DNA from: Ruditapes philippinarum
Lineage: Eukaryota
DNA: 64,000 nucleotides
Direction of reading: 5' to 3'
Assembly: GCF_026571515.1 (NCBI RefSeq)
Contig: NW_026853980.1
Location: 62,001-126,000 of the forward strand
The number at the start of each line of letters is the position of its first letter. The stretch's first letter is position 1. Shown one piece after another: positions 15,001-39,000 of the stretch. Position numbers: made by a program.

Positions 15001-18000
15001 AAATGATAAAGATTGATCTGGATTTTCGCTTTAAAAACTATGTTTGTAAACTAATAATAATCTTCGGGAAAATATGAATCAATCATTCGCTAGATATTTG
15101 TAGATAAATCTAATATCCAATATAATGTTTCGTTTATTTTAAACTATTTACATTTTTGACTCAAATATTATTTCTCTGTTCACCTCATACTTAACATTAA
15201 CAGATTTTGCAGTAATATGCACATATTAAATCATTTGGAAAAAAAGTAAACACATATAACATTATTTAGAAACATTTACCTTATTTTTATCACTTTCCAG
15301 TTTAAGAACATGTAATCCTGTTTAATAAAATTGTATCTTTCACTGCAAAATAAATGCTTCTTAAGTTTGCAAAATCCCAGAATCCGTGTTTTTTGTTTGC
15401 AATAATTTCCTATCCCGCTTACATTTTATTATTCTTATTAACTCTCACTTTATCTATCGTGCTATGTTTGTCAGATTTCATATTGCCTCGTCTCCTTTTA
15501 TAGCATAACAGTGATAAAACTAAACCGCTGGTATTTTCCAATTTCTAGTTTATACTCTAGGCAACAGATGGCTATGAAAGGACTTCAATCTATCGGATTT
15601 GTTCGCTAGTTGTAGTAAGAGAAAGCAATCTTCAATTGCCTGGACGGTCAATTAACTAATTTGCAAATAGTGTTCTCATTAAGGTGTAATGTCTAACTTA
15701 ACTTTCTTACTGTCTTTCAAAAGGGCTTGACAAGGATTTAGAGATGACTTAAAAAGTGATTTTATTTTTATTAAACGTACGCCTTTTTTTACTGTCATAA
15801 CAATAGTGAAATGTTTATGGGAATTCATTAAGCCTTTATGACAAAACGGAACTAAATTTTTTTCAAGATTTTTTGTTTCATTGGATGTATGTATAAACCA
15901 ATAGCTTGTGTTTAAAATTTCAGATCATTTGCTCACTCCGTTTTTCCAGAATAAATATTTTTATTGTGAAACATGACCCAAAATTGAAAAGCGTTGCAAG
16001 GCAAAGTGACACAATGAAAAAAAACAAGCACATTTGTAGTTTATTCTACATTTAATTTATTGCTTTTCCTAGTTTTCAAACAATTCTCCTACGTTTACAG
16101 ACATGACTGTATTCAATGTATAAACTCGGGTCATTGTCTGTTCTTTCGGTTTAACACAATTACAAAGCACAGAACTTTACATTGAACGCATTCCATGTAT
16201 ATTAGCCTCCAGGGAAAAGCAAATAACTCTCTGTTATAGACTAAGATTTGTATTTTGTTAAAATATTTATTGAAATCAATATCTAAAGTTCGAGTGAAGC
16301 ACGCTCACGAACGCATGCACTGCACGCACACACGCACGCACGCACATACAAACATTCAAAGACATATCACACATGATCTAATTTAAAACAACATAATCAT
16401 TCCCGTTAATGATTCAAACATTTCCTTTTTCTTGTGGAAAATAAAGATACTTTCAGACAAAGCGCTTAATGATCTACATAATTTGTATAAAAGACATTGT
16501 CACGTGACTAGTCTTTGTCATATGGTTTTTATGCGCATGAAGTGATACGCTATACTTCACACTGTAAGTACTTCAATAATTTTCATTCTCAAAGAAATCT
16601 TAGTAATAGCAGATCAAAGATTAAAGTAACATTTTGTTATTTGTTAAGATCACTTCATAACAATAACTTATATATATGTGTGCAGTTTTTTAGGTGGTGT
16701 GCGCAGTGTAAAATGATGCAATAAGAATGGAAAATGATACAAGAACTTAAGTTTCATTTATAATGCCACTTAATGGCAAAGAACCTATTATGTGTTAGTG
16801 TCTTGATTTGGAACATGACTCTCTAGTCATATCAATGAAAATCTATAATGTAATAACAATTTAGTAATATTTACTATTTCAAAATATATGATACTATTTT
16901 CAACAAGAGCATTACGCAAAAATATAGTTTAGTTTAATCAAAAACCGACAAAAGTAAGACGTTAATTTATATAGAAATGCTGTCTAGTCCAGAAATAGAC
17001 AATTCAATAACAGATATATGCACTCGATCTCTCCTTGAGTGATTCTTTGTAACGATATTGTATTGAAACATCTCAGCGTTAAAACTACTTTAACACTTAC
17101 TAATATCAGTCTTCATGTAACGTGTATACATACTAACATATGAAATTCTTATTGCTTGAAACAATGATTTAGAAATTATAGACTAAATAAAGACAAAAAA
17201 TAAACCTCCATAAAATTAACTCTGACATTTCTTTTTTCTTTCTTTTCATGATGTTTGGTATGTTAGAAATGCCCAAAAGTATATTGTATATGCAGATATG
17301 CCATTAAACTAAGTCTGTCACTGTTATCATCATGCACGAGTAAGATGTTTTACTTAAATGCCAATACACTGAAATTGTTATACTCGACCATGAATAAGAT
17401 GATAGAGAGAAAGGCCTTATTAAATAGAACAATTTGATTTTTTAATCATCTGCTTGTTACAATAATTCTTATAACGGTATGAAACACAAAACATATATGT
17501 TTTACTTATGCATACAAGACTGTTGGTATCTGGGCCATAAAACTTCCTATTTTGAACATTAAGTTTGTTATTGTTATATTTTTTCAACGTTATAATTGTT
17601 TGTTAGACTTAATTGCTCGCCAACTACAATACTTATTATACACATATCCTTTTATTGCCTGTTCTTTCACAGATAACCAATTTATGTAAATATAAAGACA
17701 TAAAAGATGCAAAAAGGTACAGAGGCGAAAATGAATCGTTGACCCCTATGAACGTAGAGCAGACTAACTGACTTCCAATATCAAATTGAAACAGATGGTT
17801 CTGAAAAGCACAACAGTTTCTCTTGATATACTCTGTAATTATAGCTCGTGGAATGATTGGAATGAAGACGACTCAGTTGTAGCTAATAACGGTGTGTCTA
17901 GAACACAACCATAATGGTAATGATGTCCTTTACCTAAGGCCTTTAAAATATAATGTGATGTGAATATGTTTAATAAATAAAACAAAGAGTAAGAATATTT

Positions 18001-36000: not shown

Positions 36001-39000
36001 TCCAAATTTGTTTATTATTTGTGTATATAACCATTTTATCAATTTGTACATATTTATTTAATAGCTACGTAAAAACTGTTAATCTTACAATGTGTACCAA
36101 GAAAAAAATGATATACAAGAAATAATTGGTAAAAATGAAGAAAATATACAGTGTTTCAATTTTGTTCCTAACATTTAAATTTCAACAAGTATTCCCATTT
36201 TAGTTTTCATTGTCTGTCAAAATGTGTACTTTTTATGTTTACGCACAAAAGTCAAAGATGTGTTATACTCTAATCTGATATTTGGAAAAACTTGTTATTG
36301 CTATACAATATAATTATTTTGAATTTGAAATTACAATCTTTTGAGTACCCACAGAGATGATGTTACATTCATAACTCAACTCTACACACTACCGGTAAAC
36401 ATAGTTACTGTATGAATATATAATGCTGTCAAAAACTGGCATTTTTAAAGAAATAATATTAAGTCGGCAATTAATGGGGAATGCTGCTTCCGGAAACATA
36501 ATTTGTGTATTCTCCTAATATTCATATTAGACTAATACGGTAAGGAACAATTTCCTAGCTAGTTTTCTTTAATAAATTTCTGCAATAAAAATACTTTACC
36601 GAAATATTAGAATAGAGTAGTATAGCTTTAATATTATTTTTTTCTGTAGGGTATGTCTGTGATTTAAACACTCTATAAAGGTAAAAAAATGCTAACAGTT
36701 TTATGAATATAAATTGATTCCAATTAAACTTAAATGTTGTACATATACATATACTGACATATGCCTATTTTAATGTGAAATAAACTTTTCATTCATTTCA
36801 CATATGTAAAACAATTTGTCTAGACATTTAAAACAGGTACATTGTAGTTAGATTCTATCCCCTCAGCTATTGTAAAAGCTTTCAGCCAACTTTAATATAA
36901 TAACCAATTTCCGTTTTTTGAGAAATTTATCAGTTTCATAAATATTTAAGTGGATTGGTTTTTAATGGGCTCCTTTAACATACGCATTTCATGTATTGAT
37001 GAAAACAACAGATATGTGTCATATTCATATAAGATATTGCTTAGAAAAAATGTTTATAATGTTGATGAAGTCGTAAGTGATTTGTATGAATATCTTTATG
37101 ATGAATAATAATATTTTGCATTAGAACAATTATATGTGCTATATAAATGTATGTAATATCGAATCATGCATCTCACAAATTCCAACACTATCCATATACA
37201 ATTACTTCGTGGTTTGTTGCCATGTATACTACTAAATACGTTAAACATAATTAACTTTTCTATTAAAGACCTTTCATTTTAGACCAATTCACATTAAAAT
37301 TATGCTCTTTGATTAACAAAATCGCAAATGTTAAAACGCTTAAAATATAGTGGTAGTTAGCTTCATATGAAACGAATGAACGTTATAATTAACATGACAA
37401 TCATTACACAACTCTTTATATTTTAGCATTTGTTTTACTGCTGCTTATTATCTATGTGCAAAAATTGTAAAAGATCTTTACCGCTTGTTACAATGTATCA
37501 AATTGTTTTAAAGCTTTATTTAACAGTACAAATACTAACTCGTTTAAAATTTCTTAAAATTTAACTTTAGCATTTTAATCAATAGATGGTGATAAAAATA
37601 CCATTCATGTATAAATTTACGTTCAACGCAATTTTGATTTTTTTCTCATTAAAAACGTAGTGTCATTTATAATATATACTGAGTACATTTAGATCTGAAA
37701 CAGAACAGCCCAAGTACAATTCAATTCATGAATCTAGAACACTGCTATATACGTGCGTGTGTAATTATGTCACAGTATTGCTGATGTCGCTATTTATTGC
37801 CGACACAGGTTTGTACATGTAATTAAATACTTTTTTGATTAATCTTCAATATACAATGTGCACAAAGAATCAAGACAAACATTTAATGAATGCATATTAC
37901 ATAGTTTTCCAAACGAATGCTTGAAACGTCATATTTAGGTTCCAATATCAGTCATGTATTTTCTACAAATTGAATATATTTATTGCACCAATGCTATATT
38001 GAATTACTTTTTGGTATAAGATAAATAGTATGTTTCTTGTCCATTACATCATATTAATATTAATATTACATATACAGGCTATAAACTCTGTATTAATTAG
38101 TGGCTTCCCCCAGTTCTCGCCAAAGATGATACAAGTAAAACAGTGCCAGCTTGATATATATTATGATACAATGATCGAAAGTAATATTCCATACAGTTGT
38201 TATTTGTACCAATTAATATTCAATGATACAGTTGTTTAGTTTCTGTATTGTAAATTATTCCGATGATTATTCCTTTTTGTATTTGTTAATGACAAAGAAA
38301 AAATAAAATAGTTGATTACATACAAACTTGAAGCTGTCTATGGTTAACTTGTGAAGAAAGTTTGTATTTTATTTGAAAGAATATTGACTCAGCTTCCTGG
38401 AATTTACCAGTGCTGGCCTACCTCTAAATTATATTTTGTATTTGTAATACGAAGTAACACATTTGGCCTTAGACCCGCGATCCGTATGTTTAGTGACAGA
38501 AATCACCGTGTTATCGATTCTTTTTTGTAATATTATATATAGTTTTTTCTGGATAACGTACTGTAGCAGACACGTCTCTATAAATCGCCAAAAGGAGACA
38601 TGTAGAAAAGCACAGATCATATAACAATCATATGAGAAATAAAAATATCAAAAATCATTATCATTACGCATTGTACAGTCTGGCACTACAGCTCTCTTGT
38701 GTATTCATACGCTTGCAATAACAGAAATAGTCCGGTATATTCAAGATAATGATGTATTGATATCATTTACTTTAAAGCAACTGAAAACTAAATAGGCTAC
38801 TAAATAAAACAAAAATTGTCTTTGCTCTACAGCAAGTAACTAGTTAATGGATGACTCGGATGAATTTTCCTCTGAAGACAGACATTATTTGCAAAGTCGT
38901 CTAAATGGCTTTAAAAAACTTTTTAAAACGACATTCATTCCTAAATAATCTTAAAACGTGAGGAATTGTATTTCGCACAGAACATATTAACACTCTCATA

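What the first reader, a model, noticed from the sequence alone, without database searches (positions are those of the whole stretch)
15440..38420. Old head-to-tail array of a ~5-6 kb unit with no recognisable coding sequence
Seen: four colinear, same-orientation copies (A, B, C, partial D) at very different divergences, with no TIR, LTR or transposase signature. Established: tandem arrays of this size usually carry a gene family. Inference: the amplified cargo here appears to be non-coding, such as a cis-regulatory cassette with its promoter, a lncRNA or small-RNA locus, or the flanks of lost genes. This is the best candidate for an undescribed system in the window.
Basis: partly seen in the sequence, partly recalled or inferred. 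Interest (0 to 1): 0.7.

Follow-up and report, generated by a model that had tools for sequence, protein, structure and literature searches.

The report
Old decayed tandem duplication, non-coding DNA
A stretch of about 5-6 kb of gene-free, AT-rich DNA was copied head-to-tail several times long ago and has been decaying since; it is a real but ordinary by-product of genome evolution, with at most two short conserved patches worth a later look.

Summary
The repeat is real. Units B (21891-26977) and C (26978-33199) align over about 4.9 kb at 79% identity. A (15453-21890) and D (33200-37938) share the unit's outer boundaries but are only about 22% and 30% alignable, in colinear pieces. A fifth scrap lies at 39.9-40.3 kb.

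No coding sequence was found. All 49 ORFs of at least 58 aa stay below the Pfam cut-offs. Six-frame read-through of B, C and the fillers of A and D gives no family. There is no 3-base periodicity and no dN/dS signal. Rfam finds nothing and RNAalifold finds no covariation. The unit has no terminal inverted or long terminal repeats.

The unit carries relics of two dispersed short repeats: a tRNA-derived SINE and a ~190-bp element. Both were present before B and C split.

Identity along B-C is strongly non-uniform. However, slow windows do not coincide between independent lineages (Spearman 0.16, p=0.40).

The best reading is an ancient, decaying tandem segmental duplication of intergenic or intronic DNA in an AT-rich eukaryote, not a new system. 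Two short islands, especially a ~160-bp one kept in all four copies, remain candidate functional non-coding elements. Genome-wide dispersal, transcription and orthologues could not be checked.

The parts
15453..21890 (+). Unit A, the oldest copy. The homologous pieces are 15453-15734, 16061-16541, 17713-17934 and 18194-18641. The rest is unrelated filler, including 18641-21800.
   Evidence: nhmmer tiles; BLASTN 72-75%; K2P to B, C and D 0.36-0.46
21891..26977 (+). Unit B, near-complete, 5.1 kb
   Evidence: BLASTN and MAFFT against C
26978..33199 (+). Unit C, near-complete, 6.2 kb. It has extra DNA relative to B at about 29638-30413 and at 32113-32414.
33200..37938 (+). Unit D, partial. The homologous pieces are 35117-36006, 36749-36888 and 37532-37938, ending at the unit's right boundary. 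33200-35117 is unrelated.
   Evidence: K2P to B 0.21 and to C 0.19 in block 2
39922..40336 (+). Scrap E, a fifth fragment colinear with C 32088-32653
   Evidence: nhmmer: 40142-40336 at E 2e-10; 39922-39977 weak at E 0.044
21916..22102 (+). Island 1 in B, conserved in A, B and C. The paralogues are A 15471-15663 and C 27000-27200.
   Evidence: alignment; in the core windows 21977-22067, A matches the shared B/C base at 85-94% of columns; the profile hits only these 3 places in the window
25609..25765 (+). Island 2 in B, about 160 bp, conserved in all four copies. The paralogues are A 18483-18640, C 31465-31620 and D 35536-35693.
   Evidence: B, C and D 85-93% identical; A against them 75-87%; flanks 55-70%; the profile hits only the 4 array copies at E<0.01
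26043..26264 (-). SINE relic in B, body only. The tRNA-like head was lost in a 302-bp deletion.
   Evidence: 82% identical to 61204-60983; alignment
31904..32190 (-). SINE relic in C: the body plus a decayed tRNA-like head. The end coordinate is approximate.
22209..22358 (+). Short dispersed repeat relic in B. The paralogue is C 27321-27449, and a further copy lies at 54984-54793 on the minus strand.
23778..24378 (+). The most similar B-C stretch (88-91%, paralogue C about 28865-29530). It is absent from A and D and is a candidate gene-conversion tract.
25122..25164 (.). (TAA)n microsatellite inside B, the only source of 3-base periodicity in the array
60904..61208 (+). Reference copy of the tRNA-derived SINE, outside the array: a tRNA-His(GTG)-like head at 60904-60977 plus a body of about 230 bp
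   Evidence: Rfam 43.3 bits; ARAGORN; alignment

Best explanation
This is an ancient head-to-tail segmental duplication of about 5-6 kb of gene-free, AT-rich eukaryotic DNA. It now stands as four units and is decaying essentially neutrally.

Likely history (inferred):
- The ancestral segment already contained a tRNA-derived SINE and a ~190-bp dispersed repeat.
- It was duplicated in tandem, probably by unequal crossing-over or replication slippage. A split off first (K2P about 0.4).
- B, C and D separated later and at about the same time (K2P about 0.19-0.26).
- Deletions and insertions of unrelated DNA have since erased most of A and the 5' two thirds of D.
- One ~0.6-kb tract of B and C was probably homogenised later by gene conversion.

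The array does nothing in particular. It has no gene, no recognisable RNA and no transposition machinery.

Shown: the copies, their order and boundaries, the shared repeat relics, the absence of coding and RNA signals, and the divergences. Inferred: the duplication mechanism, neutrality and gene conversion.
For: Copies and boundaries.

The SINE and the short repeat sit at homologous positions in B and C, so both predate the B-C split.

No coding:
- 0 of 49 ORFs of at least 58 aa in 15440-38420 reach a Pfam cut-off.
- 0 Pfam families at E<=0.1 in six-frame stop=X read-through of B, C, the A filler and the D filler.
- Across 64 jointly open B/C frames, pN/pS is 0.74 overall and none stands out.
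- 3-base periodicity exceeds the 99.5% null in 0.86% of 1274 windows. In the array this occurs only at the (TAA)n microsatellite.

No RNA: Rfam finds 0 matches at E<=1 in 15000-41000. The RNAalifold covariation terms are penalties.

No TIR or LTR.

Divergences: B-C 0.257, A to the others 0.36-0.46, B-D 0.21, C-D 0.19.

Slow windows are not shared between the A branch and the B-C pair: Spearman 0.16, p=0.40, 31 windows.

The best-matching B-C tract is missing from A and D.
Against: - Identity along B-C is far from uniform. The variance is 3.4-4.7 times binomial, and 0 of 2000 shuffles reach it at each of three window sizes.
- Island 2 is a sharply bounded ~160-bp patch. A is 75-87% identical to B, C and D there, against 55-70% in its flanks. 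Island 1 behaves similarly in A, B and C. Such patches are what purifying selection on a non-coding element would leave.
- CpG observed/expected is a little lower in the units (0.76-0.87) than in the flanks (0.95-0.98). This is unexplained.
- The negative correlation test has low power. It has 31 windows and covers only the 4 A-alignable blocks.
- Transcription, chromatin and orthologues could not be examined.
Confidence: 0.7

Rival explanations
1. Each unit carries one or two functional non-coding modules, such as an enhancer-like cassette or an exon of a long non-coding RNA. Islands 1 and 2 are what selection has kept while the rest of each copy decays.
For: - Island 2 is conserved in 4 of 4 copies (B, C, D 85-93%; A 75-87%) with flanks at 55-70%.
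- Island 1 is conserved in 3 of 3 copies that cover it.
- Identity is non-uniform.
- The islands are not found elsewhere in the window, so they are not obviously a repeat family.
- From recall only and untested: island 1 holds an E-box-like CAGATGG, and island 2 holds TAATTA-type and octamer-like AT-rich motifs. Such words are common by chance in 30% GC DNA.
Against: - There is no unit-wide agreement of slow windows between independent lineages.
- There is no RNA family or covariation.
- The islands were picked after the fact, from what remained alignable in A.
- No expression, chromatin or orthologue data are available.
- The TATA-like word in island 1 is present only in B.
Confidence: 0.14
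2. The unit is a large non-autonomous transposable element, or part of a composite one, that happens to have inserted or amplified locally.
For: - The unit contains pieces of two dispersed repeats.
- The window is rich in other moderately diverged repeats.
- One of those repeats, at 3110-3498, has 280 relatives at E<=0.001 among 297 candidates in the protein collection.
Against: - No TIR or LTR and no transposon protein remnants.
- Outside the array, the window has no copy of any unit part other than the two short repeats.
- 2 of 2 unit ORFs searched (23878-24129 and 22577-22831) have 0 relatives, where the high-copy repeat had 280 (against 31). This is a one-sided, weak test.
- The units abut exactly head to tail and share boundaries. 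That fits duplication, not repeated insertion.
Confidence: 0.06
3. The array is the graveyard of a tandem gene family. Each unit once held a small multi-exon gene that has decayed beyond recognition, or has exons too short to see.
For: - Established knowledge: arrays of this unit size usually arise around gene families.
- Splice-acceptor-like and donor-like words occur near conserved stretches, for example B 24350-24432.
Against: - Six-frame stop=X Pfam scans of B and C find nothing at E<=0.1.
- No frame shows low dN/dS and there is no periodicity.
- The poly(A)-signal-like word at B 24494 lies in a B-only 31-bp insertion.
- The conservation of island 2 runs across every putative splice site, and every frame there has stops.
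Confidence: 0.07

Closest known systems
Tandem segmental duplication (low-copy local duplication of non-genic DNA)
   Same: Head-to-tail, same-orientation, colinear copies with shared boundaries. Older repeat relics are carried along at homologous positions. Divergence is graded by age. A patch of higher identity is compatible with gene conversion.
   Different: Nothing essential differs. It is unusual only in that no gene is included and that four units are still traceable at K2P 0.2-0.45.
Macrosatellites (for example DXZ4 with 3-kb units and D4Z4 with 3.3-kb units). Seen only as the search listing and abstract starts of PMC3218863, PMC3491370 and PMC13138017.
   Same: A kb-scale unit arranged head to tail. 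The abstract of PMC3218863 describes DXZ4 as 'not obviously protein coding'.
   Different: Those arrays are described as 'homogenous' and 'uninterrupted', with many units. Here there are four units at 66-83% mutual identity, two of them mostly erased. There is no sign of concerted evolution beyond one ~0.6-kb tract. Copy-number polymorphism could not be tested.
tRNA-derived SINE (applies to the embedded element only)
   Same: A tRNA-like head scoring 43.3 bits against Rfam tRNA, followed by a tRNA-unrelated body of about 230 bp that is shared between the copies at 60.9 kb and inside units B and C.
   Different: Only 3 copies were seen, all in this window. The tail and target-site duplications were not examined. 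A TTTT run follows the head in the 60.9-kb copy. The family name is unknown.

Membership tests
Tandem segmental duplication | Adjacent, same-orientation, colinear copies of one segment | tested here: met
   B and C over about 4.9 kb, with the A and D pieces in unit order on the + strand
Tandem segmental duplication | Copies share the same end points, and one unit's end abuts the next unit's start | tested here: met
   The left end lies at A 15453, B 21891 and C 26978. The right end lies at B about 26977-26998, C 33199 and D 37938.
Tandem segmental duplication | Pre-existing insertions are shared at homologous positions | tested here: met
   The SINE relic and the ~190-bp repeat are present in both B and C.
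Macrosatellite | kb-scale units arranged head to tail | tested here: met
Macrosatellite | A homogeneous, uninterrupted array (high identity between units) | tested here: not met
   B-C identity is 78.9%. A is about 22% alignable and D about 30%.
Macrosatellite | Copy-number variation between individuals | not testable with these tools
   Only one haplotype is available.
Transposable element (LTR, TIR or autonomous) | Terminal inverted repeats or long terminal repeats | tested here: not met
   no terminal repeats. The longest inverted pair is 39 nt, 72% complementary and internal.
Transposable element (LTR, TIR or autonomous) | Transposase, reverse transcriptase or integrase remnants | tested here: not met
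   no Pfam family
Transposable element (LTR, TIR or autonomous) | Dispersed copies elsewhere in the genome | tested here: inconclusive
   None in the other 41 kb of the window apart from the two short embedded repeats. 2 of 2 unit ORFs have 0 relatives. No genome of the source organism was available.
Tandem gene-family array | A conserved open reading frame or exon set in each unit | tested here: not met
Known structured RNA gene (Rfam) | A match to a covariance model, or covariation between copies | tested here: not met
tRNA-derived SINE (embedded element) | A tRNA-like head followed by an unrelated body shared among copies | tested here: met
tRNA-derived SINE (embedded element) | High copy number, target-site duplications and a 3' tail | not tested
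   Only 3 copies are in the window, and the flanks were not analysed.

The most novel reading that the evidence does not exclude
The ~160-bp island 2, kept in all four units, and island 1, kept in three, are functional non-coding modules. On this reading the locus is a tandemly amplified cis-regulatory or lncRNA cassette in which selection has preserved only the modules while the spacer decays.
Probability: 0.1. Interest if true: 0.45.

Novelty: new member of a known kind. Interest (0 to 1): 0.15.

Why it matters
As it stands it matters little. It shows that a several-kb tandem array without genes can simply be an old local duplication of spacer DNA. It also shows that 'no coding sequence in a big repeat' is not by itself a sign of a new system.

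Two things make it mildly useful. The graded copies give a local record of neutral decay: substitutions, large deletions and insertions, and a probable conversion tract. And the paralogous islands are cheap candidates for a conserved non-coding element if expression or orthologue data exist for the source species.

Tried and rejected
- Hidden exons. A candidate terminal exon at B 24356-24432 was dropped. Its poly(A)-like word lies in a B-only 31-bp insertion and no frame shows constraint.
- The double-strand 116/118-aa ORF in A (18077-18440). It has no Pfam match. The single exhaustive-search hit, P0121, is a translated 65-aa tandem repeat matched at 31% over 36 residues in 11 stretches, so the E-value is inflated. 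I rejected it as spurious.
- A decayed tRNA gene as the unit's cargo. The tRNA-like piece belongs to a SINE whose body is shared with the copy at 60.9 kb.
- Structured RNA in the islands. Consensus energies are -15.6 and -13.3 kcal/mol with positive covariation terms.
- Islands as a dispersed repeat. No further hit in the window at E<0.01.
- An internal weak similarity between island 1 and block 3 of each unit (E about 1-3). It was noted and not pursued.
- Taxon. The 280 relatives of the 3.1-kb repeat ORF gave no organism; all 120 listed are unnamed or generically named short-contig proteins. A resemblance of the window's repeats to bivalve-mollusc repeats comes from recall only and is untested.
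- Not used because unsuitable or closed. Genome contigs holds only bacteria and archaea. Genome-wide dispersal therefore stayed unchecked.
- Paper supplements were not consulted.
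Full report
**Setting.** The window is 64 kb with no N, at 27-34% GC throughout.
- The longest stop-to-stop ORF on either strand is 119 aa.
- The 30 ORFs I scanned outside and inside the array for context give no Pfam family above cut-off.
- 3-base periodicity exceeds the 99.5% shuffle threshold in only 0.86% of 1274 windows.
- The only Rfam and ARAGORN hit is a tRNA-His(GTG)-like sequence at 60904-60977.

This is gene-free, repeat-rich, AT-rich eukaryotic DNA. I do not take it for human: it is very AT-rich, I saw nothing resembling the common human repeats in the stretches I read, and a repeat ORF from it matches only unnamed environmental short contigs. 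The organism was not identified. A likeness of its repeats to those of bivalve molluscs comes from recall only.

- Self-BLASTN joins B 21891-26884 to C 26978-33030 in three colinear pieces at 73-76% identity (2034, 1131 and 376 bits).
- The MAFFT alignment gives 4935 aligned columns at 78.9% identity.
- C is longer because of about 0.7 kb at 29638-30413 and 302 bp at 32113-32414.
- A and D are supported in BLASTN only by 180-360-bp anchors.
- Profiles built from the B/C alignment find four colinear pieces in A: 15453-15734, 16061-16541, 17713-17934 and 18194-18641.
- They find three in D: 35117-36006, 36749-36888 and 37532-37938. E-values go down to 8e-41 for A and 3e-93 for D.
- A starts exactly where B and C start. 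D ends exactly where B and C end. B's end abuts C's start.

However, only about 22% of A and 30% of D is still homologous (my arithmetic). A 18641-21800 and D 33200-35117 match nothing in the unit even in a space-restricted nhmmer --max search. A fifth scrap lies at 39922-40336.

**What is in the unit?** There is no protein signal.
- All 49 ORFs of at least 58 aa in 15440-38420 stay below Pfam cut-offs. The best is E=0.007, on a hydrophobic stretch.
- Frames read through with X at every stop, in all six frames, give 0 families at E<=0.1 for B, C, the A filler and the D filler.
- Among 64 frames open in both B and C for at least 20 codons, the overall pN/pS is 0.74 and none stands out.
- The only periodicity peak in the array is a (TAA)n microsatellite at 25122-25164.

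There is no RNA signal.
- Rfam finds nothing at E<=1 in 15000-41000.
- RNAalifold on the two best-conserved blocks gives weak energies with positive (penalising) covariation terms.

There are no terminal inverted or long terminal repeats.

The unit does contain relics of two dispersed short repeats.
- The first is a tRNA-derived SINE. Its best copy is at 60904-61208: a tRNA-like head of 43.3 bits followed by a body of about 230 bp.
- This SINE lies reversed in C at 31904 to about 32190, with a decayed head. In B (26043-26264) only the body remains, because the head was lost in the 302-bp deletion.
- The second is a ~190-bp element at B 22209-22358 and C 27321-27449, with another copy at 54984-54793 on the minus strand.
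- Both sit at homologous positions in B and C, so they were in the segment before it duplicated.

**History.** K2P distances:
- B-C: 0.257 over the whole unit.
- Block 2: B-C 0.25, B-D 0.21, C-D 0.19, and A to the others 0.36-0.46.
- Block 1: A to B and C 0.39-0.41, and B-C 0.15.

So A is the outgroup, and B, C and D separated at about the same later time. At 60-70% identity A should still be alignable throughout if only substitutions had acted. Its missing parts must therefore have been lost to deletions and replaced by unrelated DNA. This is an inference. The fillers carry no recognisable transposon protein.

**Is there constraint?** Identity along B-C is strongly non-uniform.
- The window variance is 3.4-4.7 times the binomial value, and 0 of 2000 shuffles reach it at 50, 100 or 200 columns.
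- The highest stretch, 23778-24378 at 88-91%, has no counterpart in A or D. A later gene-conversion tract between the neighbours B and C explains it more simply than old selection. This is an inference.
- I asked whether windows that are slow in the A lineage are also slow between B and C. They are not: Spearman 0.16, p=0.40, over 31 windows of 40 columns in the four A-alignable blocks. The power of this test is low.

Two patches remain notable.
- Island 2 is about 160 bp: A 18483-18640, B 25609-25765, C 31465-31620 and D 35536-35693. There B, C and D are 85-93% identical and A is 75-87% identical to them, against 55-70% in both flanks.
- In the core of island 1 (B 21977-22067), A matches the shared B/C base at 85-94% of columns.
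- Neither island occurs elsewhere in the window at E<0.01.
- Every reading frame across island 2 has stops, and its conservation runs across the splice-like words.

These islands are the only part of the finding that could hide function.

**Dispersal.**
- Inside the window, no part of the unit other than the two short repeats recurs outside the array.
- As a calibration, an ORF from the inverted-arm repeat at 3110-3498 has 280 relatives at E<=0.001 among 297 candidates in the 5.8-billion-protein collection. DNA of this or a related organism is therefore represented there.
- The two longest unit ORFs (23878-24129 and 22577-22831) have none.
- The 118-aa ORF in A has only a spurious hit to a translated tandem repeat.

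This argues against a high-copy family but cannot exclude a low-copy one.

**Comparison with known kinds.** It works like, and passes the tests for, a tandem segmental duplication.
- It shares the kb-scale head-to-tail layout of macrosatellites. However, it fails their defining homogeneity: the abstracts of PMC3491370 and PMC3218863 call DXZ4 'homogenous' and 'uninterrupted'. I saw only the listing and abstract starts.
- It is not a recognisable transposon, gene-family array or Rfam RNA.

**Verdict.** The feature is real, old and ordinary. Interest is 0.15. The boldest reading not excluded is that the islands are preserved regulatory or lncRNA modules of an amplified cassette. I give it a probability of about 0.1 and an interest of 0.45 if true.

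Noticed in passing
window 60904-61208 (+): A tRNA-His(GTG)-like sequence (Rfam 43.3 bits) followed by a ~230-bp body that recurs inside units B and C. It is probably a tRNA-derived SINE copy and not a working tRNA gene. A TTTT run lies a few bases after the tRNA-like part.
   Followed up: partly
window 3110-3498: Two overlapping ORFs on opposite strands encode near-identical peptides, meaning a repeat with long inverted arms. One ORF has 280 relatives at E<=0.001, and all 120 listed are unnamed or generically named short-contig proteins. This is a high-copy dispersed element often mis-called as a gene.
   Followed up: partly
window 41251-42039: A satellite-like tandem repeat with a period of 163-174 bp, about 2-5 copies at 68-89% identity.
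   Followed up: no
window 54793-54984 (-): A copy of a ~190-bp dispersed repeat that is also embedded in units B and C. Its ends and type were not determined.
   Followed up: partly
window 10123-10303 / 11657-11843; 38619-38813 / 42511-42704; 39332-39528 / 47461-47655; 57009-57307 / 60544-60242 (inverted); 56486-56856 (177-bp period): Further moderately diverged repeat pairs (70-86% identity) scattered through the window. This is consistent with a repeat-rich gene desert.
   Followed up: no
window 18077-18440: A stretch open on both strands for 116 and 118 codons in 30% GC DNA, next to block 2 of unit A. It has no Pfam family and no real homologue, and is probably chance.
   Followed up: yes
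window 15453-37938 against the flanks: CpG observed/expected is 0.76-0.87 in the four units against 0.95-0.98 in the flanks, at equal GC content. This is unexplained.
   Followed up: no
A 17785-17819, B 23621-23657, C 28711-28746: Each unit's block 3 weakly resembles the core of island 1 (nhmmer E about 1-3). The shared word is of the form AACAG.TG...GAAA.GCA. It may be an internal repeat or chance.
   Followed up: no
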